Assembly (NCBI GenBank): GCA_012295275.1
Contig: CM022668.1
Coordinates: forward strand, 2,790,001-2,854,000
Length of the DNA stretch: 64,000 bases
Reading direction: 5' to 3'
DNA from: Chrysomallon squamiferum
Taxonomy: Eukaryota; Animalia; Mollusca
Shown: piece after piece, positions 6,251 through 35,826 of the stretch
How positions within the stretch are numbered: position 1 is the first letter of the stretch
How the letters are laid out: the number at the start of each line of letters is the position of its first letter
Made by a program: the position numbers and the translations under genes
The notes under the pieces: generated by a model
Seen by the model: only the letters and a program-made list of their open reading frames with translations
Databases searched by the model: none
What the model was told of the DNA's origin: nothing

Positions 6251-7562
6251 TTTTGCAGACTTGTGTTAGTAATAAACAGACACTTTACAAAATAAAAATT
6301 TATTATGTGAAGAAATTAACTATATTACTGAATAGACTAATTTTTGTTAAATAAAATAAATATAAAAATGACTGCAGTTACCACACTAAAGAAAAAATTG
6401 ATGGAAAAATCTCAGAAATGACTTAATAAAAATTCACATTTTATCTAAAATGTTTTAGCCAAAATTATGTTTCTCCAGTGTAGTAATCTGACATGTAAAA
6501 AATATTTGAATATAATTAATTCGGTTTAAAAAAAAAAAGAGCATTTGTAACGATAAATATATATATAATTTTGTTGATCTAGAATATTCAAAATGGATAT
6601 ATATATATATATAAAAAAAAAAATGTATGTGACTAGAGACATACTAAAATGCTTTTTTTTTTTTTACAGTAAAAATTTAAATAAATAAATAAAATAATGA
6701 TAATAATAATAGTAATAGCAATATAATTTTTATTTAATACATTCAGATACAAAACACAGCACCATGTAAACACATCTATCAATACAAAGCAATTCATACA
6801 CAATTTTTAGTTACACATCTATAGCAGTTTTGATCTTCTAAAAATCTATCTTATATTACTAATTTTATAATTTATTCTAATTTCTGCCAAAACTATTAAA
6901 ATACTAAGTCTTGATAAAAAAAATTTAATTAATAAATCAACAAAAGAAAAACGAAAATTTTGATATTATTTTCAAATTATTAATTTAAACATTTTGATTC
7001 TACTTTCTGCAAGAGAAAGTAAATGTTATGTATCATTTTCAAATGTGTGAGCATGTGAGCAATATTTATGGATAAAGTATAAAGTTTCTTGATGCTTAAT
7101 AAAAAGTTTCAGAATTTTTTTCCATAAAATGATCAAAAATGTTTTTCTATTGCATTAAATTTGTTCGAGATACAAATTTTATTAAAACTGTTATCAGTTT
7201 AAACAAAATGACAACAAAATAATGTTTAACCAATCTTAACTGAGAATGATTTCATTACAATATTATTTTTAAAATTTTAATTAACATAGTAAAGCACCTC
7301 TGTAATCTAAGTAATAATAATAAAAAATAATAATAATAATTATTATTATTATTTAATGACTGCATAAGTTCATAAATGGGGTATATATATATATACATTA
7401 CAAGCATATTAAAAAAAATAATAAAAAATTACAAGTTGTTCACAAATTAAAAAAGCTAAAACATATCTTCATTCTTAACAGTTTATAAAAATATTTCAGT
7501 AAAGGTTTTGACAGAAATTAGACTGACTGTGTTAATATACTACACTATTTTTTATACAGATA

Positions 7563-7730
7563 TTACAGTTCATCGTGTTTCGGTCCACTGAATTCTTCAT
7601 GAGAAATGAAGCCATCTTTGTCTTTATCTTCACTTGCAAAAATTTCATTGACCATTTTTGTGTTATCTTCATTTGATCCTTCAGCCTGCGCCTCTTCACC
7701 ATGCATCTGATCTCCAATAAATTTTACAAC
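7563..7730 (-). CDS. FKBP14: FKBP alternative terminal exon F (most distal, most FKBP14-like): EF-hand 2 + HDEL
   Basis: tttcag|GTT...; [55 protein letters not shown]; 168 nt. Confidence 0.9.
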   Translation of the reverse strand, partial: VVKFIGDQMHGEEAQAEGSNEDNTKMVNEIFASEDKDKDGFISHEEFSGPKHDEL

Positions 7731-7765
7731 CTGAAATAGAAAACCAGATTTGTTTATAAATAATA

Positions 7766-7797
<32 letters not shown>

Positions 7798-10700
7798 ACA
7801 AATATATAAATAAATAAAAGTTCTATGTTAAATAACAGGACAAACAAAAATATGTAGTGTTAACATTTGTTTTGTTTTGTTTTTTTTTGGCTGATGCTAA
7901 TGATATTAACAAAGAATGATAAAGAAACAGATAAAGAGAGAGAGATAGAGATAGAGATTGAGATTGAGATTTGAGAGATTTAAGCAGAGTCAAGAAAGCT
8001 GATTATGGTTACAAGCTGGGATCAAAGCAAAGTCTGCAAATCTGAATAAAACAGACAGTAAAAAGTAAACAAACCACAGCAGAAAGTTTAAATTACAACA
8101 ACATTTGCAACTGTAAATTCACACATATAAACACAGGTAAGTATACACATACACATATATAAACACACACAGGTAAGTATACACATACACATATATAAAC
8201 ACACACAGGTAAGTATACACATACACATGTATAAACACACACAGGTAAGTATATACATATATATACATATACACCTAGAGAAACATTCTTTTTCACTCTC
8301 TAAATGTGGTTTTAAATTAAATTAAAGTTTAAAAAATAATGTAACATTTAATCCCAGTCATCAGTACAAATACAAGTTTACTACTTGTGACAGCAGAAAA
8401 CAAACACTGATACAACTAACACAAACCTGTTCATGCATGATTGTGTGTTTGTATAAACAAAATATATACCACCTTCAAAGTAACGTATAATAATAATAAT
8501 AAGAACAGTAATACTGACAATAGTATGATGTTGATAAAAATAACAGTAATAAAATAATAATAATTTTAATAATAATATGATGCTGATGATAAAACAATAA
8601 TAAAATTGTAAATAATAAAATTGCTTAGTAATATTAATAATAATTACACTGTCTTAGGTATATATTTAGTTCAATTACATGCACAAGTTCCCACAAAAAT
8701 GGATAAAACCTTTTAGAAACCCACACTTACATATATACAGACATACTTACACATATAAAAATGTGGGTAAACAACAATGATTCTGTAAAGCATTCATACA
8801 TAGCAAATATCTCATATCAACTGCACCGAGATAAAAACAACAACAACCAAATCAATTCAAAGAATTTTAAAAGTTTAAAGAAATATTACCTTTAATAAAT
8901 GAAATACTGAATGAACAAGTTACAGGCAAAGTGAGTGAATTACATAGACACATTTTTTAATCTTGAATAAGTAACTCCAAATAAACAGAGAAAAAGTTTC
9001 TTGAATAAAAAATATAAATCTTTACTGACAACAATTTTTCAAATGAGTAAATCTATTTTGTACTTATAACTGTTATTTCACAGAAATTCTTGTGATTAAC
9101 GTATTATTTTGTTCTTACTATAATAAGTAAGTATCTCTTTTCTTCTTAAGTTGGCAACTAGTTCTAGTAACTCTTTACTTCTTAAATGAATAGGAAACTG
9201 AACTATAAAATTAATTCTCAACAATCTAATGTTAAGTAATTTAATTTTTCAGGTTCACTTGAATTAATTCTGTGTTCAAACATGCCTTAGACCATCAATA
9301 TATGCGTGTGTGTGTGTGTGTGTGTTGTGTGTGTGTGTCTGGGGGTGTATGTTTACATACACATACATGTGCATATGTCAGATGCAGAAGAACCAAACCA
9401 CAAAAGTAAACAAAAAATAGCAAAGACGACACAAAAAAAGACAATAACACCTGATAAGAAACCTGCATAAAGAACAGTTTACCTGAACCCAGACAGAAAA
9501 CAGAAAGAATTAAAAAAAACTGTAATACATACCATGTGACTAACTCAATGTCACAGGTGAGAAACCACCAGAAATAAATGACCAAGCTGGTTTTATGACA
9601 TCAAACAAATGGTTTACAATGTATACAATGAAAAAACGAAACTGGACTGCATCCACATGATGGTTATTTTTTCATCTAACAGCAGATAACTTTTACAGGA
9701 AGGTCACAACATGACTTTGATATGTAAACTAAGAGGTAAAACAATTTAAGTTTTAATTTTAATTTCAGAGTCCCATTTTCTTTGTTTTGCCATCTTTTCT
9801 TTTGTGCTAAGCTAAGCCTCCTGTTACAGGTTTGACATCACATCATGTTAAGGAATGCTATATTATTATATCATATCCTATTATAATAATTTATTATTCT
9901 ATTAGCCAAGTTTAATTACAGCTGTGTTCCTTGCTATATGTGTATTTGTATGTCCTTTTTTTTTTTTTACAGTTGTTAATTTATTAAAGAGCACAAGTAT
10001 AAGACAATAAGTGAGAGGGAGAGAGAGAATGAAAGAGAAAAAATCCAAACTGAAAATGCAAGAATGGCATCAAGAAAAATGTAAGGGAAACCGGAGAAAA
10101 TAATTTTTAAAAAAAAAGTAAAATCGAAGAATCATTCAGCATGGATATCAATGAATATTATTAAAAATATTTTTAAAAAAAATCATTTTAACTTCTGAAA
10201 GAGACAATCAGATGAGAATTAATTACATATGTAATTGAAAAATATTAAATTGTAAAACAATGGATTCAGAAATGTCTTTTAATGAGAAGCAAATAATGTA
10301 ATTAGATAATGGATTATGCATATTTAAAAAAAAAAAAAAAAAAAAATATGTTTTTTATAATTCGCCACGACGGTCATGATACTCGGAATCTGTTATGAAT
10401 CCATTTTTGTCTAAATCGTAGTAACTCATGAGATTTTTAACATAGGTCTGATGTTCACTGCCATCCACTTTGAAATCTTTCTGTGAAGACATTACTTTTT
10501 TCACATAATGATTAATCTAAAAAACAGAAAAATACTTTTAAAATAAAAATGAAAAAAAAAAAAAAAAATAAATACGATAAAATAGACGACAGCTAGGTAA
10601 ACAGATAAAAAAAAAATAATAAAAAAAATAAAATAAAATAAAATAAAATGATAAAATAATAGATATAAATATGGTTTTGTTTTACCAATAACTCAAGTAT

Positions 10701-11887
10701 TACTGTTAACAATAAAAATAAAATAACCAAATAACAGAGATAAACATAAATTATTATTAAAAAAAAAAAAAAAAAAAAAATGAATAGGTTTAAATAGTTT
10801 TGTTTAGAATTACACAAGAACTGAAATTTTATTATTAGAAAATATATATAATAAAGGAAAAAAATAGTAAGAAGAATGAATGAGGAAAGAAACACAGAAA
10901 CAATCAATCAAAACGGAAGCAAACAGATAAAGCAAGAATAGTCGTAAGTAAAATAGAAAGAAAAAATAAATAAAAAGGAAGAAGAAGAAAAAACAAAAGG
11001 AAATAAAACTGAATCATGGGTATCTGGATATATTATTAAAATTAAAAATTATAAATTAACAAAAATAGTTAATAAGCGTAGGAAAATAAATTATTCTCTT
11101 ATATAATATTATAAATAAAAAGATGAAATTTGTAACATTAAAATAAATAAATAATTAATTACAATATGTATTGTTAAAACAGGGAATTTTAAACAATCAA
11201 ACAGTTAAGAAATTAATTATATAAAAAGAAATTTAATTAAAAACGATGAAAGAATTTACAAATATTTGTAATGTTATCAGTTAATGTACTAAGTGTATTT
11301 CTTAAATTTAGTTTTTATTTAAAGTTCATCTCTGACAGTTTTCAGATATTCAGAATTTGATACAAATCCATTTTTGTCTTTGTCTAAATGGTTCATGATA
11401 TTTTCTACATTGTTTTCATGTTCCCTGCTTTCTGTGTTATAACCTTCATGCACAGACATGTGTGTTTTCACATAATCACTAATCTAAAAAGCAAATAAAG
11501 AAATAAAACAAGAAATTATAAAAAAAAATAATAAAAAAATAATAATAATAAAAAAAATAATAATAAAATAAAATAAAAATTTATAAAATAAACAAGCAAA
11601 AAATAAAATAAAAAAAATAAATAAGAAAAAATAATTAAATGACAAATAAAAAAAAAAAAAACAAACAAATAAATGTAATATAAATAAAGAAAGTGTCTGT
11701 GTGTGTGTGTTCATGTGTGAGCATCCATGCACGTGTGTGTGTGATAAAACAAATAAAATTTAAAAAATGCTCTGAAAAATAAAGGCTCCCATGTGTATGA
11801 CTTGTATAAAAATCATCCATCAGAAATCATTCAGCCTAAACCAATAAATGACAGACTTTTCATGCAACAATTTGTTATCAAACATTA

Positions 11888-11946
<59 letters not shown>

Positions 11947-14900
11947 ACAGAAAAACTGACATGTTTGGCTTTAACATCAAGTGTTGTGTGTAAAAGCAAT
12001 GATACATGTAAGAAACCAACGCTGTATAATAAAAAAATAAGAAAAGAAAAAAGGAAAGGAAAAAAAAAAAGAAAGAAAGAAAGAAAAGGTAAAGATGACA
12101 GAACAGGCTTGTCATTTCATGCATCAGAAAGATACATGATCATCATTCATTTTAAAATGCACTGAAAGAGCTAAGTACAAGAAAACAATGTGAAATAAAA
12201 ATAAATACCAACATGTGCTCTGTGGTGAAGTGTATAAAAACACTACCAGAACTAAAACAAAATTATAATTTAACTGTGGAGATTTTCAACAGTTTAAACA
12301 CCACCAGAAATAAACATAAGTGGTGTGTTTACAATTTAACTTTGATAGTCTTCGAAGCCAGTTTTTGTGTTCACCAATCACCACAAACAAATATCTGTTC
12401 TCATTCCAATGTTGTGAAAAAACACCACATTACACAAAACATGTTAAATGTTCTTAATTTAGCTGTGCAGATTTAAGGTATGTTGTGACAAAATATACAA
12501 AAAAATCAACATAAGTGTTCATACTTTAACTACAGTGGCATCAAAAGCCTATTTGATACTCAAAAACAAACATAAATGAATATATATTAACGTGGTGGTT
12601 TCAAAAGTGTTTTCAGTGACTCAAACATCAAAGAAAAACAAATATATTTATGTGTTGATAAATTAGTTGTGCTGGTTATAGAAGTCACTAACACTGAAGA
12701 AACAAACAAATAAGCTCACATTTTTCTTCAGAAGACTTTTTTTGCTCAAACATCACAGAAAAATGAACATCTTAATGAACAAATGATGTATTCATAATTT
12801 CACAATAGTGTTTTTAAAATTCTGTTTTATGTGCAAACATAAATTAAATAAATGAGTGCACTCATAACTTCACCAGTTTGATATTAAAACTTGCACTGCT
12901 TTCAGAAAACATCAAACAATAACAGACACCATGGTGCAAAATTTCAGCAAAATAATAAAAAAAAAAATTCCAGAAAACCAACCCCAAAATGAAAATAAAC
13001 ACAGAACATATTTTAATTTTTTTCATTGTGGTTAGTTCTTCACCTGTATGCAGACACTACCAAACAAAAATAAACATATCAATGATGATGTGATCATTCA
13101 GACTTTTAAAGTCAGTGTTGCTAAAATAAAACTTGAAAATAAACATCAGGTGTTCACAATTTCAGTGTGGTCATTTAAAAAAACTTTGCTGTTAAAAAAT
13201 ATAAGCATATGTGCATGAACATGTGCTTGTATTTTGTTTTAGACAAAACAAACAAAAACAAGTCCTTTTGTGCGGTCACTTTTGTACAGTCAAGTTGTTG
13301 TGTGATCATACAACAAACTTGTGCTCATAATGTGGTCATTTGTCAAGCACAGTGTGCATACAGCAAACACCACACAAAAATTAAACCAGTGAACATGTTC
13401 ATAATCTGACTGCCATCAATTCTGAAACCTTCAATACCAGCAGAAACTGGACACAAACAATCACGTCAAAGTACTCATAATTATTAACTTTGTCTCTTGT
13501 TAACCCATTGTGCAGGCAGACGCCAAATAAGGATAAATGTGTCCATACAAGGCGTGCTTGATCCTAAAGCTGCACACCAGACAGTGTTAACATTACCAAC
13601 TCTTGCAGTTCTGTTGAAATGAAATGTTTTTGTGCTACATTCCACCCTTTGTAAAATACAGAACAAATGTGAAAAAGGAAGAAATGGTTTTCACATAAGA
13701 TGTAATATTTTCGTGCTACATTCTGCCATAAAAACAATGTCCAGAAAGTTTCCAAAATGAAGCAGATTATTTCTAAACAAGATTCTTTCTGTGCTACTCT
13801 TAACAGCAGACATTTGTGAACATAAAACATATGGTGGAAAAACACTTTTGTGCTACATTCTGCCCTTTTACAAAATATTTTCAAAAATACCCAAAAAAGG
13901 AGCAGATTTTTTTCTTCCAAATACGATGGGAAAATGTTTACTTTAAAGTTCATCATGCTGAGAGTGGAACTCTTCATGAGATATAAACCCATCACTGTCA
14001 AAGTCTCCATGTTTCATCATCTCAGAGATGACAAACTCGTAATCCTGTTCCTTACCACCGGAATTTTTCTTTAAAGCCTTTTTCACAGAGTGAAGAATCT
14101 GTAAAGTAAACGACACTCTCAGTTTCTCTCTCTCTCCAGATTCCAGTCTGTGAGAACAGTGCTCATGCATGACTGCCATGGGCACATATATTTAAAAAAA
14201 CAAAATTTAAATCAATTTTTAAACTTTGCCCATGAAATGATTGCTGTTTCATGACTCAAGGGTCAAAGTTAACAGGTGCATGCACCTAGAAATGCTTCTT
14301 TCTGCAATTGTAATGTGCCTGTATTTTTATCTGTTGAGAACAATGATTTGTACTAATAATATCTGCTTGGTTACCAAATTAGGTAACATTTTAAATTTAA
14401 ATGTTAAATCTGATAAATTATATAAAAAAAAACAAGATTATTAATATATCAATTTGGTTTAATTTAAAACTGAGTTGAATAATAATTTAAAAAATAAATA
14501 TAAAATTATAAAAAATGTCCCATTCTGAGTGTTGATGCTGTTTTTTTTTCACCAGTACACTGGTACTGGAGGATTAATTTATTAATTAATTATAATTAAT
14601 TCAATGCAGGTGTAATAACAAATGATTCCTGGTTGTGATCTGAATGTTAAATACCTGTAAAAACATCACTTGTCAAACATGTTAATATGTATTATTTTTT
14701 ACTACTATTTTACATAACAAATTTTTTAAAAAAAAAAATAAAATAAAATGAAATAAAATAATAAAATCAATTTACAGAATAATAAAATGAAAAAAAATAA
14801 TAATAAAAAAAAAAAAAAAAATAAAAAGTAAAAAATAATAATAATAAAAAAGCAAATCAATAAAAAAATAAATAAATAAATAAATAAATATAATTTATAA

Positions 14901-17273
14901 AGTAACAACAACAACAACAACAACAAAAAAGTAACAATAATACAAAACAAAACAAAACAAAGCAAAATAATAAAATAAAATAAAATAAATAATTTAAAAT
15001 TATCTGTCACTTCTAAAATCTACTTGGCTTCTTTCTGAAAAGAAATGACCAAGTTTCTAAAACACTGACTGAATACACACTATGTACAGAATCACTGCAA
15101 AGTTCAAATACAAATAACAAAAATTTCAAACCAGACTTTAATACTTTAAAATATGTGCATGATTTTATATAAATTTAAAAATAACAACTTCAAAGATTTA
15201 AATGGACATGCAGATAAATTTAAAAATATTGAAAGAAAAAGGAGAAAGATATTGATAATCTTTAGAATGATAAATAACAGAAGTCAACCAAAAAAACAAG
15301 ATATGAAACTTGAAAGTATGAAATCTGAAAGTAAACTGAAATTATTAACTTTACTCATAAAAACGTCTATTAAAATTCAGTTTTATCACAATTAATTCAC
15401 CACTGACTTATCAATAAAAATAAAGAAAAGCTCAAAATCATTGATTTCAGAGATATAAACCCACAAATGTTTTAGCAATAAAAAAAATCTCAAAAATATA
15501 CAGCAAAATAACAAAATTTTAAATTTTTGTGACCATTCAATCAAAAATACCATGATTTAAATTACCACTGATAAAAACATCAGTTTTAACTTTGATTCAG
15601 TAAAAACATTCCTTAACCTCATTTAAATAAAAAAAAATATCTTTTAACCTCATTACATCAAACTTAAAAATCTCTTATCCTGATGTCAAACATGATAAAA
15701 ACTTATTTACCCTCATGTCAAGTATTGGTAAAATGTTAACCTCAGATCAAATAATAAAAATATTTTTAACCTCATATCAAGTAATGATAAAATTGTTTAA
15801 CCTCAGATCACATACTGATAAAATTGTTTTAAAATTATATCAAATGATAATAAAAATATTTTAACCTTATATAAGGATAAAAATGTCATTAACATGGAAA
15901 ACACACACACAGATATATACATATATATATATGTATCAAATGTGGTTTATAGCATGTCAATAACAGATGACTTCATATTAAATTTAAACATGATAAAAAC
16001 ACCATATGACATCATTAAAACCTTTTTTGATTTTTTTTTTTTTTTTTAAAACCATCAACTCCAATGCCACAGAAACTTTCATTTTACTTTCACATAAACA
16101 CATTTCAACAAGATGTTTATGAACTCTTCAGTTTTGAAGTTCAAATACTTTCAAGGACCAGATCCAAATGCATGGCCCTTTCAGAGGCAATAACAGTTGA
16201 TGAATGCAAAGAAAACTGGAAGACAAAACATATGATTCACTTCAGTGCTTTGAAAACAAACAAATCTCTATGTTCTCACACATTTCAGGGTAGAAAGCAG
16301 CTACCCTTAATGGAGGGGACAAGAATTTTTGGTACATGGTGACCTGGCCACATGACATGCCAAAAATAAATTTTCTGATAGATATTCAAATGGTGAAAAA
16401 AAAAAGAAATCAAAACTTTGTCGTTTGTTTTGGGGTTTTGGGGCAGGGTGGAGATGTTATGAATATTTACTTAACTTATTAAAACTTTTATGAAATTTAA
16501 GATATTCAATTTGATGTCTTTGAATTTGAAGATTCTTTCAGTTTTTAATAATCTGCAGAAACCGTGTTTTATTGTAACAGATATGTTTTTACGTACCTAC
16601 CCTACGACCAGGTAACAAGTATCATCAAAAATACCATCATGATAAAAATTCCTAGTCTCATATCAAACATTTAAAATAAACTGCATATAAAAGATGATAA
16701 AAATGTCTGACCCCATAACAAGAAGTAAATTATACAAAAATAAAAACCAAAAAAGTGGAAGAACTATATCCAGAAAAATGATGATGATTCAGAACAAATT
16801 TACATGAATATAAAGTTATATAACACAAATCTGAAAACAAATAAATAGAATAAAAAGATATATATATATATATATATATACATACTTCAAATAATGGAAT
16901 GTTTTCTGATAGATTTTAAGGGAATGCCAAGTTAAGATAAATAATTGAAAGAATTAGAAAAATTAAGCACAAAAAAAAAGAGAAGTAAACAAGCTAGATA
17001 AATTATATAAATTTAAAAACAAATTTTGTTATGCAAAATATTTTTAATCTATTGAAACTCATTGTATTAAAATTTTTGTTATTTTAAATTTTCTCTCTGT
17101 TATTTCATTATTTCTGGTTAAAAAAAAAAAAAAAAAAAAAAAAATTAAAATTGTTTAGTTACTCTGTTATTTTTATTTCAGAATTTATCAGTTACAATTT
17201 TATGTTTTTACATGGTAATGTTTTATTTGGTTTTTATTATTAAAGCTGTGGTTTCATAATAATAATAATAATC

Positions 17274-17306
<33 letters not shown>

Positions 17307-20300
17307 GTATAAATAAATAAATAAATAAATATTTACATAGAAGAAAAACTAATACAAAATGATAATTTATTTTAAAATATTTCAAAATGAAGGCAAAGAT
17401 CAATGATCAAGTGATTGATTTTAAATTATATATAGATGTGTGTACCATTTTATTTTATTATTATTTTACTTTGTTATTTCACTTATTTCCATTATTTTTA
17501 TCAACATATTTTATTATCCTTTATCTTTCTAATATTTCACTAAAAAAAGAAGAAAAAAAGCCCCAGACAAAACAAAATGCTTTACAGTGCAAAACACACA
17601 TACATATGATACACAACACAAACAGCACACTAAAACCACCATTTAAATGATAATTTAAAACAAAAATTAAAAAAATTAAATGATAAAGTTTTTCAAAGTT
17701 CATCATGTTTTGGTCCACTAAATTCGTGAAAAGCGATAACTCCATCATTATCTTTATCTTCAGTTTTGAAAATATGTTCAATCAAGTTTTCATGGGCCTC
17801 GGCATCAGGCTCAGGCTGTCCAGTTAATTTGAGCTGCGCCTTCAGATAATCAGATATCTACAAGAGAACAGTGACCACAACCATCAGTTTCATCAGTAAC
17901 CATGGCAACACAAGATTACCCTCAAAACCGGCCTCTTTCAGAAATGCGAAAATTAAACAAATAAAAAAAATAAAAAATAAAAAATAAAAATAAAAATAAA
18001 AACCCAGTATGAATGAAATGTAAAATAATCGCAATAATTCATAGTCCATTTATATATATCTATGTATTTTACAATAACCATAAAACTGCAATATATTTTA
18101 AACTTAGAAAAAAACATCTTCAAACTGGTGTATATTTTATTCTATGGAAGACATCCTGAAATTGGCTTAAATTTTTTTGCACTGCAGAAATCATCTTAAA
18201 ACTGGCATAAATTCCACACTCAAAATTGGGCCAAAAGTGACGATACATTTTGTGCTCAAAATCAGCTGCAATTTAGCACAAATTCTGCACTTGCCAAAAA
18301 ATCACCCCAAAACTGGCAAAAACAAAATGCACTGCCAAAATCAGCTTGAAAGTGATATACATTTTACACTATGCAAATCACTGTGAACTGAAATTTTTGT
18401 ACACTAAAATCAGTAATAATTAAATGCCTCATTCACTTTATTTTTTTTTTTAAACCAAAAAAAAGAAGAATGTATGCAGGATATTTAAATATAATTTTCT
18501 AAAAACAAAAGAGAAGAAAGGAAGGGACTGTTCATTTTGTAAATGTTTCTGCTTGAATATAAACACAAAAGTAAATAAATGAATAAAACATTTAAAAATT
18601 AGCATTAAACATCCTCTTTCATGATTTCTCCTAACAAAATAAAAATTAATTAACAACCAAGGACTGTTAATTAGAAGTTATATAAATTTACAAACATAAT
18701 GTCACAAAACATTTGTTATAAAATACCTAATTCACTTATCAACAAAATAACATATGCTTTTATGACATAGATAAGTCATAGGTAAATAATGATTTATTAT
18801 TATATATATATGAAAACTACAAATAAAATGCATCTGAAATTATTATAAAAGACATGAAACATTTAAACAGAATAAAACATCAGTTGTCTGAGCTGAAATG
18901 TTTTTTAAAAATATTAGATAATAACTTTTATGTGCAAAATGTCAAATAAAAACTGTTTTAGTAAAAAACCAATCTCCCTGAAATTTGAAAAAAGATAAAA
19001 AGAAAACAAAACAAAAATAAAAGCAAAGTTTAGGTGCCTCTCCAATTATTTGCTGAAAGTTTTCAAACAAAAACAAACAAACACATATTGACTCACAACC
19101 TCTCTCTTAGTCACACACACATACTGACACCTGGATGTACAAAAATCTTCAACTTCAATCCAAAATAAACCCCTTCAGCTGAAAGATATTTTTGCCATAT
19201 CATCCATTATCATTAATTAAAAACAAATCCATGAAAATGATTAGTTGTTTGCTTTCTTTCTGTTTCAATAAAAGTTTTTTTAAAAGTGTTAGTTTAAGGA
19301 CAAATCATCCATAACCATATTTGTTTTTAGTCAACTGTTTAAAGAAACCCAATAACACTGCCATGTTACAAAATAAAACAAAAACATCTGTGGACTGCAA
19401 AGGCTGTAAATAATTCATGTTAGTTCTGAACCCAATTAAAAAATAAACTATCATTTCCATTTCAAAACTTGTTACAAAAATAACAGGAAGTTTCCAAAAA
19501 ACCCAAAACAAAAGAACAGGAACTTTTTAAAGAAAGTTAACCTCAAAATTCATCATGTTTTGGACCGGGGAACTCCTCATGGGAGATAACTCCATCAAGG
19601 TCTCTGTCGTTAAATTTAAAAACATCATTAATAAACTTTCGGTGGGCATCTTCATTAACTTCGGGTACAGGTTCCCCTCGCTTTTTTGCTTCTTCATTGA
19701 ATTTGCGAACATACGCAGAGAACTAGAAAGAACAGACAAAACAAAGGATACTACCAACTGTCAGACATTTTGAGTAAGGATAAATATTCACTAGTTTCAC
19801 AAGATGGGGTCAATGTCCATAAAATCAATCTGAGATAATTCACAGATTATCCAGACGTGTTCCAAGAAAAATTCGCACACGATGCCAAGCCCTCTCAACA
19901 TTTAAATCCTGTGTTTTAAACAGTTTCAAGAAAAAAATAATAATTTAGAAAAATGCATTCAGTATGAGTAAATTGTATTTTTATTTATTTATTTTTTATT
20001 ATCTGTGAAATAAGGTGCAATAAAGTTACATATTAAAATTATGTTAACGTTTTTTAAAATCAAAATATTTCAGAAAGGTTGGATTATTAAGGAAAACTTT
20101 TTTTATTATTATAAGCCAGTGACAATTATTTATTTATTTATTATATATATATATTTTTTATTATCACATGTGAAATAATGGATAACATATCACCAAACAA
20201 ACTTTTTAAAACTGTTTCAAAAGAACTAAATATTAGAAAATTTTGAAAATTATTGCAATATAAACAAACCTACATATTTACAAATTACAATATCATATTT

Positions 20301-21910
20301 TCAAGATTTCATGGCATCTCCTGTGAAATAAGTTGGTTATAGTCACCAATTAAATTTTTTATTTTAAATCATTTGAACAGAATTAAAAATTTTAAGATTT
20401 TGAATTATCAACTGTGAAATAAGGACTGATTCAAACACCAATTAAATTCTTTATTCTTATATCATTTGAGAATAGTTTCAGAATAATAGGGAGTTACTAA
20501 AAATAAATCTAATATTAAAAATGGTTTCAGAAGGGACAGAAAATGTTCAAACCAACTTTTATTTTTATTATAATTAAACCAACTTTTAAACTATAAATTT
20601 TATTTTTACTTTTCACATTTCTATCACCTGAGAAATAAGCTGTCACTGATTTCAATAAAAATGTTCATAACCAGGCATAAAACTGCTAACTTAGAATTAA
20701 ACCCAATTTTATATCATTTTAACAGCAAACAGATGAGAAATGTGACAGTTATACAATTTAATAATAAAAACATTGCAGAGATTTTCAAATCTTAACCAGT
20801 GAAATGTAATCAGGGGAGAGTACTCTGTAAGGTCATAGGTCACTGTATTATTGTCAACTGCCTTTAGTGTATACTGAGTTTTCAATGATGAGATAATAAA
20901 AATGTTTTGCTAGTGAAGGCTACATAATGTGAATACAAGATTTCTTTTTCATTACTGTCATAATAATTTTACAAACTAAAATATAATCATAAACATCTGA
21001 AATAAATATTTTATTTCTTTTGTATTTAACAAAAAATATTTCTTCAGATTATTCTCTCAACCTAGTAACAATATTTTAACATACTGCAGATATATTCCGA
21101 TTTTTTAAAAACTGTAATGACACTTAAATTAATTTATTTGTATAAAACAATGTGCAGCAGTAATGTGAATATGTTCATTTTAGATCATGTAAGCTTTCAA
21201 AATGCACATGAAACCACACACTATTTTATTTATAACTGCACAATCATTATATAAAAACATAAAAGCACATTTCTGGTACTGTAAAAGAAAATTCAATAGT
21301 TTTTCATTACAAATGATGAAAATAAAATTTTTACTTTAATAATTTATATATTTTGTATCATGCAGATAATAAAGTAATATAAAAATAATATCAAACTAAT
21401 GATTTCAAATATATATATGGGTTTTGATCTTTTCTTTAACAAAGTGTTATATCTTGTACATTCTCATGAAATAAAAATAACTAAATTAACTAAATGTATT
21501 AAAAAATAAATAATAAATGAATGGATGACTGTATAAATAAAATAAAATAAAATAAATAAACTATTACTATACTACTAAAGGTCAATACAAAATGCCTGAA
21601 TTTCGGAACTCAGCCGTTTTCATAAAAAGCAAATATTAAAGTGTTAGTACTGTAATTTTCAACTTTTACTAATTAATTAAAACTAGCTACTCTTGTTAAC
21701 TTTTAAAACTTTCACTCACCTCATCCTTGGACAGCTTGTTGTCGCCATCAGTATCAATTTCCTTGAAGATGTTCTTGGGTGGGGGCCCATCTTTAATCGA
21801 AAGCAGCTCAACTTCAAAAACCAGAGTTGATCCACCTGGAATCTTATCTCCTGTGAAGAAGTCAAAAAAGTGAATGTAGTTTTATCTGTTAACCTGAGAT
21901 GGGACAATAA

Positions 21911-22775: not shown

Positions 22776-24678
22776 GTAATAAGACATTTCCATTTAGTAT
22801 TCAGTTATTCATATCCTCACATAATAATGATAATTAACTTGTAAAATACAACATTTCAAATTGTTGGATGTCAGGAGTATGTGAGTAATATATGTAGAAG
22901 TCATTGTACTATGTGAACATTTGTAAACATAACATTGTTTGCGACAATAATATAGCGATATACTTTGCCATTTTCTTTCTTTTTTTTGACAAAATATTTT
23001 TATGGGTTGTGCAGGGTTTTTTCTTAACAAACAAAAATAAATTTTGATATTACTGTGCCCTTCATATGCCCTTGGTAATCAGTACCATCAAACTGGCCAT
23101 AAAAACAGTCTGCCATTTTTTTTTATTCTTCTAGACACTATTTTTATATTTTAGTCTCATCGTAAGAGATTTTGTATTCACATTTTGTACTCTGATTATT
23201 TTAATTCAGAACTGTGAGAGATTAACAGCAAAATTTCTAGAAAAACGTTACAGATATTACAATTTCTAGGAAGGAATAGAATATGTTAAGTCAAGGTGTT
23301 TTTATTTAACACCTGTAGGTTGACCCACCTGCACCTTGATCCCCGTATGCCAGGTGAGGGGGGATGGTCAGTTTTCTCTTTTCGCCTACACACATTCCCA
23401 GCAGCCCCTGGTCCCAGCCTTTGATCACCTGACCAATTCCAATCTGGAACTCAAACGGTTCATTTCTGTCCAAACTGAAAAATTAAATTTTTTAAAATTA
23501 TTTAAAACGTAATAAATGTCTGAGTATAAGTATTATCTGTGTTTGACATGTCTACGTGCAAGCAACAAATTTGCTTTGACACATTATTTTATTTTTACTG
23601 AAAAAAAATCCCTAACTTCAGACATTGATAATAAAATTGATAATAAAATTAATGTTCCAAAAAACAATAATTAAACAGTTTTTCATTTTTTAAAAATCTT
23701 TGACTATAGACACTGATAATAAAATGAATATTTTAAACTATAAAAATGCCAAAAATAATGACATTACTAAATATTTATTCATATATATTAGTACAATATT
23801 ACTTTTTCTTTCTTTCTTTCTTTTTCTTTGTCTTTTTCCTATTAATGTTTCTGCAGCAGTTTGTCATTTCACAAGTTCACTGATATATTCATAATATTGC
23901 TTATCATATTTTTTTTTTTACAGAAAACAAGTTCGATTAACAACAGCTTGTAGATGGAATGTATCTGCTTTATCTGTCTGATTTACGATAACTATCTGTT
24001 TACTCTGATAGAGAATATATTTACAAAACCACTGATACTGTACATGCAATTATGAAGCTCACAGAATTGTGACAAATTATACTAATACAATCATACAGTA
24101 GTGTATAAATTATTATGGAGACATTAATCTGATTATGAATTATTTCCTGTTTCTGGTTGATCAAATACTGAGGCTTATGATATCCTGAAAGTAGCAACTT
24201 TCTTTATCTGCAAATGATCTTTAAAAAGTTTAGCTTTCCTTATTGGATGGTATTATACCTTGGATGTAATTGAAAGGGAAATTAAGATAAAATATTTTTT
24301 TCAGAAAAGAGAAAAACAATAATTTTTATATTATTATTTATTATTATTTATTTGTTATGCTCTAGATAAGCTACGTTTCAAGGAATGTACTTTAAAATCA
24401 GCTTATATTTTACACATATAACTAAACATACGACACATTTCTTAATTTCATATTAAATACCATATGGAAATTGTATATCTTTACCTCGAGTCAAATTTTG
24501 TACCGTCTTTTTCCAAAGTTCCTGTATAGTGCATTTTCAGCTGATCTCCCTTTTTCACTTGTCGATCGCAGTTATCAACTTTTTTTAAGTGTTCTATTTT
24601 AACATCTTCGTCGGCTTGTAGTGAATGAAATTGGAGAAGAAGTATCAAAAACACCGAAACACAAGTTACGGACGCCAT
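7563..24678 (-). CDS. FKBP14: ER-resident FK506-binding protein / peptidyl-prolyl isomerase of FKBP14/FKBP7 type (signal peptide, FKBP domain, two EF-hands, ER-retrieval tail), with six alternative last exons; about 208-216 aa per isoform
   Basis: Shared exons 24485-24678, 23329-23474 and 21720-21850 splice in frame to 157 codons and end in phase 0. Six downstream phase-0 exons each complete the protein. FKBP motifs [44 protein letters not shown] are present. Confidence 0.92.
8125..8262. repeat. 36-bp tandem repeat, 4 copies
   Basis: CAGGTAAGTAT at 8134, 8170, 8206, 8242 inside a CA/TA-rich unit. Confidence 0.85.
10355..10516 (-). CDS. FKBP14: FKBP alternative terminal exon E: EF-hand 2 + RGEL
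   Basis: tttctgttttttag|ATT...; [53 protein letters not shown]; 162 nt; absent from the supplied ORF track. Confidence 0.82.
   Translation of the reverse strand: MNHYVKKVMSSQKDFKVDGSEHQTYVKNLMSYYDLDKNGFITDSEYHDRRGEL
11319..11483 (-). CDS. FKBP14: FKBP alternative terminal exon D: EF-hand 2 + RDEL
   Basis: ttgctttttag|ATT...; [54 protein letters not shown]; 165 nt; AATAAA overlaps the stop (TAAATAAA). Confidence 0.85.
   Translation of the reverse strand: MSDYVKTHMSVHEGYNTESREHENNVENIMNHLDKDKNGFVSNSEYLKTVRDEL
13943..14098 (-). CDS. FKBP14: FKBP alternative terminal exon C: EF-hand 2 + HDEL
   Basis: tttactttacag|ATT...; [51 protein letters not shown]; 156 nt. Confidence 0.87.
   Translation of the reverse strand: MLHSVKKALKKNSGGKEQDYEFVISEMMKHGDFDSDGFISHEEFHSQHDEL
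15565..15890. repeat. degenerate tandem repeat, unit about 30 bp
   Basis: Recurring GATAAAA...TTTAACCTCATATCAA core. Confidence 0.6.
17693..17857 (-). CDS. FKBP14: FKBP alternative terminal exon B: EF-hand 2 + HDEL
   Basis: tgttctcttgtag|ATA...; [54 protein letters not shown]; 165 nt. Confidence 0.9.
   Translation of the reverse strand: MSDYLKAQLKLTGQPEPDAEAHENLIEHIFKTEDKDNDGVIAFHEFSGPKHDEL
19543..19722 (-). CDS. FKBP14: FKBP alternative terminal exon A (most proximal): EF-hand 2 + HDEF
   Basis: tgttctttctag|TTC...; [59 protein letters not shown]; 180 nt. Confidence 0.88.
   Translation of the reverse strand, partial: FSAYVRKFNEEAKKRGEPVPEVNEDAHRKFINDVFKFNDRDLDGVISHEEFPGPKHDEF
21720..21850 (-). 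CDS. FKBP14: FKBP shared exon 3: end of FKBP domain and EF-hand 1; carries the single donor for all terminal exons
   Basis: cacag|GA GAT AAG...; (G)[43 protein letters not shown]|gtgagt; phase-0 end. Confidence 0.93.
23329..23474 (-). CDS. FKBP14: FKBP shared exon 2: PPIase core
   Basis: tttcag|T TTG GAC...; (S)[48 protein letters not shown](G)|gtgggt. Confidence 0.93.
24485..24678 (-). CDS. FKBP14: FKBP shared exon 1: signal peptide and start of FKBP domain
   Basis: [64 protein letters not shown]; donor AG|gtaaag. Confidence 0.93.
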
Positions 24679-24739: not shown

Positions 24740-24880
24740 CCCTCAACGTGGCTATTTGTCTACCAGCGGAAGTCTTCAGTGCAACGTTCTCATTTTCGAT
24801 TGGTTGATTGGAAACTATTTTTAGCAGTATTCCACGTGTTTGTCCACATGTCGCTCAAGGCAAAACAAACAGCCACGTTT
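24740..24880 (-). promoter_or_regulatory. FKBP proximal promoter with CCAAT boxes and CCACGT (XBP1/ATF6-type) cores
   Basis: CpG-enriched patch just 5' of the ATG. CCAAT on the - strand at 24799-24803 and 24807-24811; ACGTGGC 24746-24752; CCACGTG 24832-24838; GCCACGT 24872-24878; ETS-like GCGGAAGT 24766-24773. Confidence 0.55.
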
Positions 24881-28091: not shown

Positions 28092-29340
28092 TTTTATATA
28101 TTTTTTTAAATTCTATATATATATATATATATATGTCCACACACACTCACACACACACACACACACACTGAGGTCTAGACAAAATTATCACATTTACATT
28201 AAAATGTTGTTACCAGTAAAATTTTCACAAATCAAGGACTAAGCCAGGAATTAAAAAGAGGACTGTAATGTTACCCAGTGAACTCACCACTACAGCTAAC
28301 TAAACTTCTATCATTAGACTGAAAGTGTTACTGCAGTTTTATTAAATCCTTGTTGGTATGTTTCAGGTACTTCATTCCCAAAGGTTACAAGTAAAGTTAC
28401 TGAGACATGGATTACTGCAAGCAGAGGATGATGTGGTGAAGCAGCTCACTGCAACTGTATGGTTGGACTTGGATGAGCTGTTCGCATAGTGCTGCTCTGC
28501 TGAGAGACCATTGTGAGAATCCAAGATTCCAAAACAGTTCCAAAACATCCTGCTTACTGGATGCTTCCTGCAGCCATTAAGAGTGTGTTTCTATGGAAAT
28601 GAGAGATAAAGACTTCAGATCAGCTAAAGATTTGAACAGGAAATTAGATGACAGAATTTCTGATGTGCATGTGATTATGTATCAAACACTAGAACCATCT
28701 CCACTGAATGGAATGTCTTGTTGACACCACCATCTCAATGTCAGCTGGATACTTTTTCAGAAACTTACATTTGACAGGTACAAAGCCAGGTTTGTTAGCT
28801 ACCACTGAACCACACTCAGATTCTTATGTTCCTAAATCTGTCACAGCAGACTTTCCTACAACTCTTACTGACTTGAGAGACGACAATTAGATTGCTTTGG
28901 ACTCTGCTGATTTACTAAATAAATGTAATAAAATCAAGTTAGAAGTGAATGCTGATCAAGTAACTGAAAGTGGAGTTGGCTACCCAGGCCCAGTCACAAT
29001 CAAAAACATGGTTCAGATTTCTAGCAGGTAGGATTACAGCATCAGAAACCAAGGAGGTTTGTAATACAGATCCATCTAATCCTTCACAGAGTCTAATAAC
29101 TGGAATCTGTTATCCAGAGGCAACAAAGTTTTCAAATGCAGCTACTTGTTGGGGACATGATCAGGAAAAAGAAGCTGAAGCTGGTTTTGGGAGAAAAAAT
29201 GGGACCTTTCCATGACAATCTGACAATTAAAGAGTGAATTTATCATCAGTGTTGAAATCCCTCATCTAGAAGATTCACCAGATGGGATTGTTTCTTGTGA
29301 CTATTGCAGGAAAGTTTGTTTAGAAATTAAATGCCCCTTT
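27692..29340 (+). pseudogene. decayed SWIM zinc finger + YqaJ-like (PD-(D/E)xK) nuclease gene, the accessory-ORF type of ISL2EU / PIF-Harbinger-related DNA transposons
   Basis: Fragments in order: MAKASKDN...DGTDPYEL; LKSYRGLDVYNQFVSGWVRE; tttcag|VLHSQR (28367); AAHCNCMVGLG*..CSHSAAL (28441-28500); TQAQSQSKTWFRFLAGRITAS...ICYP...AATCWG; SPDGIVSCDYC..CLEIKCP (to 29337). Multiple stops and frameshifts. Confidence 0.78.
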
Positions 29341-34168: not shown

Positions 34169-35826
34169 TAATAATAATAATAATAAAAGTTAGCGAGATG
34201 TTACATCTTTTTTCATAGAAATTTATTTAGTGACTTAGGCAGACATTTGTTAGATTAATTCAGAGTTAAAGTAAACTGGTATTTATTTGTTGTTTAAAAT
34301 AGACTGGTACTTTACTCAAATACACTGTTTCTTCTACATGCGCTAACTTCATCATGATATTATAAACATCACACATTCTTTTCTAAGGCAATTTTCTGAT
34401 TTTATCACGCAAAAATACACCAGTAAGAAAATAATAATAATAATAACAATGAAATATTTTTTAAATCTTTATCTTCATCTTTTAAAATTAATGACTGCCA
34501 GTTTAAATTTTTAATATTTTACAACAATTATCAGTCTAGATTTATTACAACTCTTAAATATAAAAACTGCTCAACAGGTGAAAATACAGGTGTTCCATTC
34601 AGTAACTGTAACTCTTGGCAATTCTCAGTGATATAATGTGTATAAAAAAATATCCAAAAATATTTCTCTTTGTATCATTGTCAAATCTGCCACCTGATCT
34701 TAAATAATTACTGAATTTGTCAAAAATTTTAATAATTTTAAAATTTTAATTTTAATAAAAATATATTTATTTGAACAAGCATCAAACTACTATTTCTTAC
34801 ACACTGATTTTTAAAAATATTTCACAAACAGAAAATTTATAACAGTCTTTTTAAATTAATAAAAATTAAAAAAAAATGTATCTTTTATCATGCTTAAATT
34901 TTTGCAAAATTTATTTAGAGAATATTATTCAAGCATTTTTATATTTATCATTACAAAATTAATTTTTTTAGGAATTCTACTTCAGTATCAAAGAATATTT
35001 TCTTTATGGCTTTTTATTCAGTTTTCTGTGATATACAAAAGATTAAAATTTTCTTTGATCAGTAGAATATCTCTGTTTTTGTCTTCATATTAATCAATTC
35101 TTTCTCTAGTGCCCAAGCTGATGAATTTCAACAACTTATAACTGTCTTATATAACATGTAAAAAAAAAATGTTAGTAGATGTTTAGAAAATCTTGGCTTG
35201 TTAAAGTGCTTTGAAAGAACAAAACAACAAAAATCAATTCTAAAAGTTTTGTAAGTGTTCATAATTTGTCTGTCTGGTAACATCACAATTCCTAACTCCT
35301 ATATACAGAAATCGTTCAGAAATGAAAAATAAAAAATAAAAAATTGAAAATAAAAAAATCACAATTTCTTATTAATCAAATGATCCAGAAGTGAATATTG
35401 ATGGTTTCACTGATTATGTTTTTTTGTCTTTTTTAAAAATTTCAGAAATAATATTTCACAGCTGGTGATTCACTATAACGAAGAAGAAATTGCTGCAGAA
35501 AGAACATCCACCCTTTTCTCACAACAAGTTTTAATTTTAATTAATTCATGTGAGTGTGAATACTGCAATCTCCATTTTCTTCATAAATCCAGTGAACAGA
35601 AAATGAACAAGTCTTCACTTTCTGCTGATCTCTGCTGATAAACTGAGCGCCAAGTGAGGACAAACAAACACAACAAGCTGATATCACAATTTCAGCTCAC
35701 TCTGAATAAAAACTGTGCAGAAACGAAATGCAAAAATCTCCGTTTGAATAGTAAGAATTTGATCCAGCAGAGAAATTTGCCACATTGACGTCGCTACAGT
35801 CTGGTGTCACAACACAACATCGACTA

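What the first reader, a model, noticed from the sequence alone, without database searches (positions are those of the whole stretch)
7563..21850. Six-way array of alternative terminal exons diversifying the EF-hand/ER-retrieval module of an FKBP14-type foldase
Seen: one promoter and one set of exons 1-3 (signal peptide, PPIase domain, EF-hand 1, phase-0 donor at 21719) are followed over 12 kb by six homologous exons. Each has a polypyrimidine+AG acceptor in phase 0, an open frame of 51-59 aa, a 12-residue EF loop, and a stop directly after a KDEL-like tetrapeptide. I found no other copy of exons 1-3 between them, so they are not separate genes. The exons are highly diverged yet none has a stop or frameshift, which argues for selection on all six. 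Known: vertebrate FKBP14 and FKBP7 have this architecture with a single C-terminal module, and FKBP14 assists collagen folding. Inference: a constant-region/variable-tail locus making six mutually exclusive ER chaperone isoforms by alternative splicing and polyadenylation, possibly tuned to different secretory tissues or clients (matrix, mucus, shell). I do not know a description of this arrangement.
Basis: partly seen in the sequence, partly recalled or inferred. Interest (0 to 1): 0.92.

Follow-up and report, generated by a model that had tools for sequence, protein, structure and literature searches.

The report
Six swappable tails on ER foldase
A snail's gene for an FKBP14-type protein-folding enzyme carries six duplicated, intact last exons; RNA shows two of them spliced in as alternatives and a related snail's gene models use three, so one gene likely makes up to six enzymes with the same catalytic part but different calcium-binding, ER-retrieval tails.

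Summary
Observation confirmed. One minus-strand FKBP14/FKBP22-type gene (three constant exons, 157 aa) is followed by six homologous phase-0 terminal exons (T1-T6, 51-59 aa, 23-49% identical), each with an EF loop and a KDEL-like end; there is no second FKBP exon in the window. RNA contigs join exon 3 to T6 in 3 of 3 runs laid and to T1 in 1 of 3, all from one study. Gigantopelta aegis RefSeq isoforms X1/X3/X2 carry counterparts of T1/T2/T6 at the same joint, and five oyster species have two alternative tails there. T3-T5 have no RNA or orthologue support, but dN/dS below 1 and neutral simulations show selection. Tandem alternative last exons are a known kind (Drosophila pip, PGRP-LC; 77 human cases); I found no paper on an FKBP case. 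Tuning to collagen, mucus or shell clients is unsupported: in human FKBP22 the FKBP domain, constant here, binds collagen. The tails more likely tune calcium-dependent partner contacts, ER retrieval and 3'UTR control. The scan had noted a similar EF-hand exon swap in another gene, not this one.

The parts
24485..24678 (-). Constant exon 1 (coding part): ATG, signal-peptide-like N-terminus, start of FKBP domain
   Evidence: Pfam FKBP_C E 8.7e-6; signal peptide read by eye from the hydrophobic N-terminus
23329..23474 (-). Constant exon 2: FKBP domain core (QVIKGW)
   Evidence: FKBP_C E 1.3e-20; exon 2 to exon 3 joint in 3 of 3 RNA runs (loose ends behind 21853)
21720..21850 (-). Constant exon 3: end of FKBP domain, entry helix and loop of EF-hand 1; common phase-0 donor
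   Evidence: RNA contigs cover only this exon, not the flanking introns; 7 of 7 letter differences seen in it are synonymous
19543..19722 (-). T1 terminal exon, 59 aa, ends HDEF
   Evidence: Joined to exon 3 in RNA run X1 (29 of 30 loose letters match); 48/59 identical to G. aegis X1 tail; starred pair 100/100
17693..17857 (-). T2 terminal exon, 54 aa, ends HDEL
   Evidence: 34/54 identical to G. aegis X3 tail; starred pair 97/90; no junction in the 3 RNA runs laid
13943..14098 (-). T3 terminal exon, 51 aa, ends HDEL
   Evidence: Intact acceptor, frame, EF loop and end; no orthologue or transcript found
11319..11483 (-). T4 terminal exon, 54 aa, ends RDEL
   Evidence: Intact; 69% nucleotide identity to T5 over 139 nt; T4/T5 dS 1.11, dN/dS 0.36; no orthologue or transcript found
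10355..10516 (-). T5 terminal exon, 53 aa, ends RGEL (non-canonical retrieval signal)
   Evidence: Intact; groups with T4 at 93/93, not starred; no orthologue or transcript found
7563..7730 (-). T6 terminal exon, 55 aa, ends HDEL; the form seen in every RNA run laid
   Evidence: Joined to exon 3 in runs X1, X2 and X3; 39/55 identical to G. aegis X2 tail
7352..7357 (-). Candidate poly(A) signal ATTAAA of the T6 transcript
   Evidence: Contigs of X2 and X3 run 403 and 402 nt past the joint and so would end about 25 nt after this hexamer if colinear; weak, since an (AAT)n run also lies there

Best explanation
This is one FKBP14/FKBP22-type prolyl isomerase gene whose last coding exon lies in six tandem copies; RNA shows the common donor spliced to the first or the sixth copy, and the other four are likely used the same way, which would give up to six enzymes with one catalytic domain and different calcium-binding, ER-retrieval tails. 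Shown: the anatomy, the E3-T1 and E3-T6 joints, and conserved counterparts of T1, T2 and T6 in another snail. Inferred: each exon carries its own stop and 3' end, so choosing one acceptor and ending the transcript behind it excludes the others without special machinery. T6 is likely the default form and T1-T5 regulated or tissue-restricted forms. The variable part (exit helix of EF-hand 1, linker, EF-hand 2, retrieval signal, 3'UTR) most likely tunes calcium-dependent partner contacts (BiP-type, by analogy with FKBP7), strength of ER retrieval (HDEL > HDEF, RDEL; RGEL possibly leaky) and mRNA control, rather than which collagen is bound.
For: RNA: exon 3 to T6 in 3 of 3 RNA runs laid, and exon 3 to T1 in 1 of 3. 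In X1 the 554-nt constant contig stops exactly at 21720, and two contigs overlapping it by 30-32 nt go on into T6 (depth 27.8) and T1 (depth 16.4), as a branch would give. G. aegis XP_041374469/70/71 share 156 aa and differ only after the same residue. Their tails match T1, T6 and T2 one to one (48/59, 39/55, 34/54; the best non-matching pairs give 26-27 identities). Five oyster species have two tails at this joint. All 10 estimable tail pairs of 15 have dN/dS 0.11-0.71; 5 are saturated at synonymous sites. Under simulated neutral drift, T3-T5 keep acceptor, frame, EF loop and xxE[LF]-stop together in at most 0.22% of 4000 runs at 0.25 changes per site and in 0 of 4000 at 0.55. HDEF is retained less well than HDEL, and RDEL binds about 10-fold weaker than HDEL (PMC7617889, passages). 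FKBP7 modulates BiP in a calcium-dependent way (10.64898/2026.01.18.700172, passage). PMC6191721 section 17 says plain scanning can pick one 3' cassette.
Against: No relative of T3-T5 beyond generic tails, and G. aegis is annotated with three tails only. At 0.1 changes per site, 1.7-6.8% of neutral copies still look intact, so recent death of a copy is not excluded. No function of any tail was tested; the role of FKBP22's EF-hands is 'mostly unknown' (PMC6965642). RefSeq isoforms are models, not experiments.
Confidence: 0.7

Rival explanations
1. Only three tails (T1, T2, T6) are in use; T3, T4 and T5 are lineage-specific copies that were under selection for most of their history but are now silent or nearly so.
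For: No transcript and no orthologue for T3-T5. They have long branches (3.5, 0.7, 2.44), have lost the GPK before the retrieval signal, and T5 ends RGEL. A short spell of neutrality leaves 1.7-6.8% of copies intact-looking.
Against: All three are intact at once; the T4/T5 pair has dS 1.11 and dN/dS 0.36; EF-loop ligands are kept. The RNA sample is three small runs of one study.
Confidence: 0.2
2. The tails choose among secretory clients (collagens, mucus, shell or sclerite matrix proteins).
For: Human FKBP22 is collagen-type selective (PMC6965642). The tails differ in charge and linker length. Extra tails were seen only in molluscs, among 120 listed hits of 2080.
Against: EF-hand disruption changed neither PPIase activity nor collagen III refolding, and the FKBP domain is held responsible for collagen binding (PMC6965642, passage citing earlier work); that domain is constant here. 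No tissue data were available.
Confidence: 0.2
3. The protein differences are largely neutral; the array is kept because each exon brings its own 3'UTR and poly(A) site, which set mRNA level or location by tissue.
For: All tails keep the same EF-loop consensus and a retrieval-type end; the stretches downstream of the stops are unrelated to each other apart from simple repeats.
Against: T1 keeps its distinct features (5-residue longer linker, HDEF end) at 48/59 identity in G. aegis, as high as the constant region (126/156), while differing from T2 and T6 at over half its sites. That points to selection on tail-specific protein sequence.
Confidence: 0.12
4. The six exons belong to separate genes, are read through in series, or come from an assembly artefact.
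For: No whole genome was held, so the assembly could not be cross-checked.
Against: No further FKBP exons in the window. Each exon ends in a stop. The copies are only 23-49% identical, so they are not collapsed haplotypes. RNA branches at the donor, and the order-independent match to G. aegis isoforms holds.
Confidence: 0.02

Closest known systems
Human FKBP14/FKBP22 (PDB 4MSP) and FKBP7/FKBP23
   Same: Signal peptide, one FKBP domain, two EF-hands, C-terminal retrieval signal. 4MSP is the best PDB match of the G. aegis isoforms by sequence (E 8.9e-46 over residues 23-210) and by fold (E 2.4e-21).
   Different: No FKBP gene is in the human catalogues of tandem-exon substitutions (0 hits in the supplements of PMC9741552 and PMC8373072, with TPM1 present as control). 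Here the last exon is six-fold.
RefSeq isoform sets of 'FK506-binding protein 2-like' in Gigantopelta aegis (XP_041374469-71) and oysters (Magallana gigas, M. angulata, Crassostrea virginica, Saccostrea cucullata, S. echinata)
   Same: The same gene, the same joint after the EF-hand 1 loop, and homologous alternative tails.
   Different: Three tails annotated in G. aegis and two in oysters, against six here. These are automatic models; no paper on them was found. Whether the oyster pair and the snail array share one origin is unresolved.
Drosophila 3' variable regions: pip (10 cassettes), PGRP-LC (3), CG42235
   Same: Constant 5' part spliced to one of several tandem-duplicated 3' cassettes over more than 12 kb; tissue-differential in pip (PMC6191721, abstract and passages).
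   Different: Those cassettes can hold two to four exons and are chosen through docking/selector RNA pairing. Here each is one exon, and no such pairing stood above controls.
Human tandem duplicated exon substitutions, C-terminal class (77 of 236 events; e.g. TPM1; internal EF-hand swaps in ACTN1/ACTN4)
   Same: Homologous C-terminal regions exchanged by mutually exclusive exons; EF-hand swaps that alter calcium binding are known (PMC9741552, passages).
   Different: A different gene family; here the EF-hand pair is completed in six ways and the localisation signal changes with it.

Membership tests
ER-luminal FKBP with EF-hands (FKBP14/FKBP7 type) | One FKBP-type PPIase domain | tested here: met
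   Pfam FKBP_C on exon 1 (E 8.7e-6) and exon 2 (E 1.3e-20); motifs MHYTG, KFDSS, QVIKGW present
ER-luminal FKBP with EF-hands (FKBP14/FKBP7 type) | Two C-terminal EF-hand motifs | tested here: met
   EF1 loop [12 protein letters not shown] in exon 3 and a 12-residue loop in 6 of 6 tails; Pfam hits below cut-off on the short pieces; helix-loop-helix pair in the model of G. aegis X1, mean pLDDT 88.9
ER-luminal FKBP with EF-hands (FKBP14/FKBP7 type) | N-terminal signal peptide | tested here: inconclusive
   Hydrophobic N-terminus of about 22 residues read by eye; no signal-peptide predictor was run
ER-luminal FKBP with EF-hands (FKBP14/FKBP7 type) | C-terminal KDEL-type retrieval signal | tested here: met
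   HDEL in 3 of 6, HDEF and RDEL in one each (functional variants in PMC7617889); RGEL in T5 is not covered by that paper's passages
ER-luminal FKBP with EF-hands (FKBP14/FKBP7 type) | PPIase activity, Ca2+ binding, ER residence | not testable with these tools
   Needs bench work
Tandem-duplicated mutually exclusive last exons (3' variable region) | Homologous exons in tandem behind one common donor, same phase, each with its own stop | tested here: met
Tandem-duplicated mutually exclusive last exons (3' variable region) | Transcripts join the common donor to different copies | tested here: met
   T1 and T6 joints in RNA: 2 of 6 copies; the other 4 not seen in 3 runs
Tandem-duplicated mutually exclusive last exons (3' variable region) | Separate 3' end for each copy | tested here: inconclusive
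   Hexamers at background density; weak hint for T6 only
pip/PGRP-LC-type choice by competing RNA pairings | One docking site complementary to selector sequences before several cassettes | tested here: not met
   261 windows of 24 nt in 21719-20130 against the 400 nt before each acceptor: best shared pairing no stronger than sets drawn from 31 control segments (58-91% of control sets were as strong); limited range, no cross-species alignment

The most novel reading that the evidence does not exclude
All six tails are expressed in different tissues of a vent-type snail, and the same exon was duplicated independently in oysters. The EF-hand module of FKBP14 would then be a repeatedly diversified interaction surface in molluscs. 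Isoforms would pair through it in different combinations (the human protein crystallised as an EF-hand dimer; recalled, paper not held), and the RGEL form would escape retrieval and travel on with secreted matrix. The locus would be a natural variant series for the open question of what the EF-hands of the Ehlers-Danlos protein FKBP22 do.
Probability: 0.2. Interest if true: 0.72.

Novelty: new member of a known kind. Interest (0 to 1): 0.5.

Why it matters
The function of the EF-hands of FKBP22, the protein lost in kyphoscoliotic Ehlers-Danlos syndrome, is 'mostly unknown' beyond binding calcium (PMC6965642). Here one constant catalytic domain is paired with up to six selected versions of that module, which can be expressed and compared directly. 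The same exon is also duplicated in oysters, so the tail seems to be a target of diversification in molluscs. The splicing architecture itself is not new, and three of the tails already stand unremarked in a relative's RefSeq models.

Tried and rejected
No whole genome was held, so hidden copies were excluded only within the 64 kb window. Reads could be laid on exon 3 only, so cover of the tails themselves and their 3' ends was not seen. The absence of T2-T5 joints in three small contig sets is not evidence of silence. Relatives of T3-T5: no candidate among proteins of 28-95 aa; none in metagenome contigs with T4 (217 pattern matches, 0 confirmed). A profile against 1.84 billion representatives gave 798 hits at E <= 0.001, 150 listed, mostly multi-EF-hand proteins; the 11 I read were ordinary ..GPKHDEL tails. 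Origin of the arrays: a tree of 38 tails on 55 columns left 21 of 35 inner branches open. Four one-clade tests rejected nothing (oyster X1 + T1 p 0.086; all snail-array tails 0.205; all oyster tails 0.127; oyster X2 + T2 0.413; groups named after seeing the tree). Docking/selector pairing: none above controls; the repeat search gave only simple AT-rich repeats. Poly(A) hexamers are uninformative at 3.6 per kb. Complex prediction of G. aegis X2 with X1: no answer, score 0.00, alignments not used; evidence neither way. A signal-peptide-like match at +35069-35125 (E 1.5) has no start codon or following exon and was taken as chance. The first simulation timed out and was rerun. The FKBP22 structure paper was not held. 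PMC2447506, PMC5763155, PMC6290070, PMC5870485 and PMC12668782 gave nothing on alternative tails or on the dimer in the passages shown.
Full report
Observation. The minus strand holds an FKBP gene with constant exons at 24678-24485, 23474-23329 and 21850-21720. They have GT/AG borders and give 157 codons: a hydrophobic N-terminus, an FKBP domain and the loop of a first EF-hand. Six homologous exons follow at 19722, 17857, 14098, 11483, 10516 and 7730 (T1-T6). Each has an AG acceptor in phase 0, 51-59 open codons and a stop after HDEF, HDEL, HDEL, RDEL, RGEL or HDEL. tblastn and blastn find no second copy of exons 1-3 in the 64 kb, and an HMM of the tails finds six segments and nothing else below E 0.28. 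The tails are 23-49% identical to each other and all keep EF-loop positions 1, 3, 5, 6 and 12. No whole genome was held.

RNA. Five runs hold part of the gene; four are on record as RNA, all of one study. Three RNA runs and the fifth run were laid on exon 3 with short flanks. The RNA contigs cover the exon and not the flanking introns; the fifth run covers the introns and behaves as DNA. Beyond the donor, the loose letters are the start of T6 in 3 of 3 RNA runs. In X1 a second contig has 207 loose letters, of which the 30 shown match T1 at 29 (one synonymous difference). In X1 the 554-nt constant contig ends at 21720 and both branch contigs overlap it by 30-32 nt, as an assembly branch would. 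So 2 of 6 joints are shown. T2-T5 were not seen, but contigs of small runs drop rare forms. All 7 letter differences seen in exon 3 are synonymous.

Relatives. Exon 1 found 2 proteins among 32 candidates, both from Gigantopelta aegis; a third isoform lay in one cluster. XP_041374469, -70 and -71 share 156 residues and diverge at exactly this joint. The constant parts are 126/156 identical to the window's, and the tails pair one to one: T1-X1 48/59, T6-X2 39/55, T2-X3 34/54. T1-X1 and T2-X3 are starred pairs; T6 and X2 fall in an open group of five. The window is therefore likely from a snail close to G. aegis; the species was not determined. A search with the full protein gave 2080 hits, of which 120 were listed. 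Among the 142 proteins then held, pairs with a near-identical constant part and unlike tails occurred only in G. aegis and in oyster-type sequences. Magallana gigas, M. angulata, Crassostrea virginica, Saccostrea cucullata and S. echinata each have two tails, about 48-57% alike, at the same joint. One of the two oyster forms stands full-length on many Logan contigs, the other as 63-aa pieces; one old model (K1PUI4) fuses both tails, as tandem exons would allow. The named entries read for Haliotis (3 species), Patella (2), Biomphalaria (2), Aplysia, Pomacea, Babylonia (2 loci), Lingula and Limulus carry no isoform label; that is not proof of a single exon. The tree puts both oyster tails together with two unnamed sequences (84/95, not starred), which hints at a separate duplication, but none of four one-clade tests rejected anything. 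The origin is open.

Are T3-T5 alive? They have no transcript or orthologue here. Of 15 tail pairs, 5 are saturated at synonymous sites and the other 10 give dN/dS 0.11-0.71; T4/T5, the closest pair, has dS 1.11 and dN/dS 0.36 (short alignments, rough values). Simulated neutral drift from each of T3-T5 (4000 runs per setting) keeps acceptor, frame, EF loop and end together in 1.7-6.8% at 0.1 changes per site, in at most 0.22% at 0.25, and in 0 of 4000 at 0.55 (the criteria were written so that the real exons pass). They were thus under selection for most of their history; very recent silencing is not excluded.

How it likely works. Each exon brings its own stop and downstream sequence, so splicing the common donor to one acceptor and ending the transcript there excludes the rest (inference). 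PMC6191721 section 17 says such scanning suffices for simple 3' arrays. I found no docking/selector pairing above controls. T6 is likely the default form, since it is the one in every run laid. Poly(A) hexamers are at background density. A model of G. aegis X1 (mean pLDDT 88.9; best match 4MSP) shows that the variable exon starts inside helix 154-170, so it supplies the exit helix of EF-hand 1, the linker and EF-hand 2: most of the EF-hand pair. For human FKBP22, EF-hand disruption changed neither PPIase activity nor collagen III refolding, the FKBP domain is held to bind collagen, and the EF-hands' role is mostly unknown (PMC6965642, passages). That speaks against client tuning. FKBP7 acts on BiP in a calcium-dependent way (10.64898/2026.01.18.700172, passages). 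HDEF is retained less well than HDEL, and RDEL binds about ten-fold weaker (PMC7617889, passages; vertebrate receptor). From memory, not from a call, the FKBP22 crystal is a dimer through its EF-hands (paper not held; 4MSP has two chains). My best reading is that the tails tune calcium-dependent partner contacts, retrieval strength and UTR control. T1 is as conserved as the constant region while differing from T2 and T6 at over half its sites, which argues that tail-specific protein sequence matters. None of this function is tested.

Comparison and novelty. Tandem-duplicated alternative last exons are a known kind. Drosophila pip has 10 cassettes over more than 12 kb, and PGRP-LC has three (PMC6191721: abstract, passages, section 17; PMC9013439, passages). 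In humans, 77 of 236 tandem-exon substitutions are C-terminal (PMC9741552, passages). No FKBP occurs in the main text of PMC9741552 or in the one supplementary file each of PMC9741552 and PMC8373072 (of PMC8373072 I saw only the listing and that file). Searches for a description of this locus: FKBP14 + alternative + isoforms + EF-hand (2 papers); alternative last exon / duplicated exons / mollusc (18 papers, 16 listed); FKBP + Gigantopelta (0); peptidyl-prolyl + FKBP14 + oyster (0); scaly-foot / alternative splicing / FK506 (834, 12 listed, none of them with the first term). None of the listings describes it. The library lacks most subscription journals, and bioRxiv supplements are closed. PMC5589949 (oyster alternative oxidase, duplicated exon) was seen as a listing only. 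PMC5870485, PMC12668782, PMC2447506, PMC5763155 and PMC6290070 were seen as passages. The scan's own notes hold no match by sequence or place, and one note on alternative EF-hand exons in a reticulocalbin gene of another genome, which I did not check.

Verdict. The array is real, selected and partly confirmed by RNA. It is a new member of a known kind, with six copies where the relatives' models show two or three. Interest 0.5: well supported and a handy natural series for an open question on FKBP22, but the splicing design is familiar and the function of the tails is untested.

Noticed in passing
window 24746-24878: Three ACGTGG hexamers within 135 nt just upstream of the FKBP start codon (9 in the whole window, 3.7 expected), with two CCAAT near 24810. 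They resemble unfolded-protein-response elements (recalled).
   Followed up: partly
window +351-470, +670-789, +1847-1963, +2340-2468: Four homologous 39-43-codon exons with six cysteines (C.YGDK...C......C......CC.TC), the 3' part of a convergent gene; no Pfam hit up to E 1; PLAC-like spacing by recall.
   Followed up: partly
window - strand, about 61000-35800: EGFR-like receptor tyrosine kinase gene upstream in the same orientation (open frames; kinase exon PF07714 E 1.7e-15).
   Followed up: partly
P0192: An unnamed 296-aa FKBP14-type protein in which the EF1+EF2 module is duplicated in frame (..GPKHDEAPKPPNVF..), a different outcome of duplicating the same region.
   Followed up: no
P0041/P0065 and P0063/P0090: Babylonia areolata and Nucella lapillus each have two whole-gene FKBP14-type paralogues rather than alternative tails.
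   Followed up: no
window 26430 (- strand): A long pyrimidine tract with AG about 1.75 kb upstream of the FKBP start; possibly an acceptor of an untranslated exon of this or the upstream gene.
   Followed up: no
window 28300-29330: A higher-GC stretch with broken frames between the two genes, possibly a decayed mobile element.
   Followed up: no
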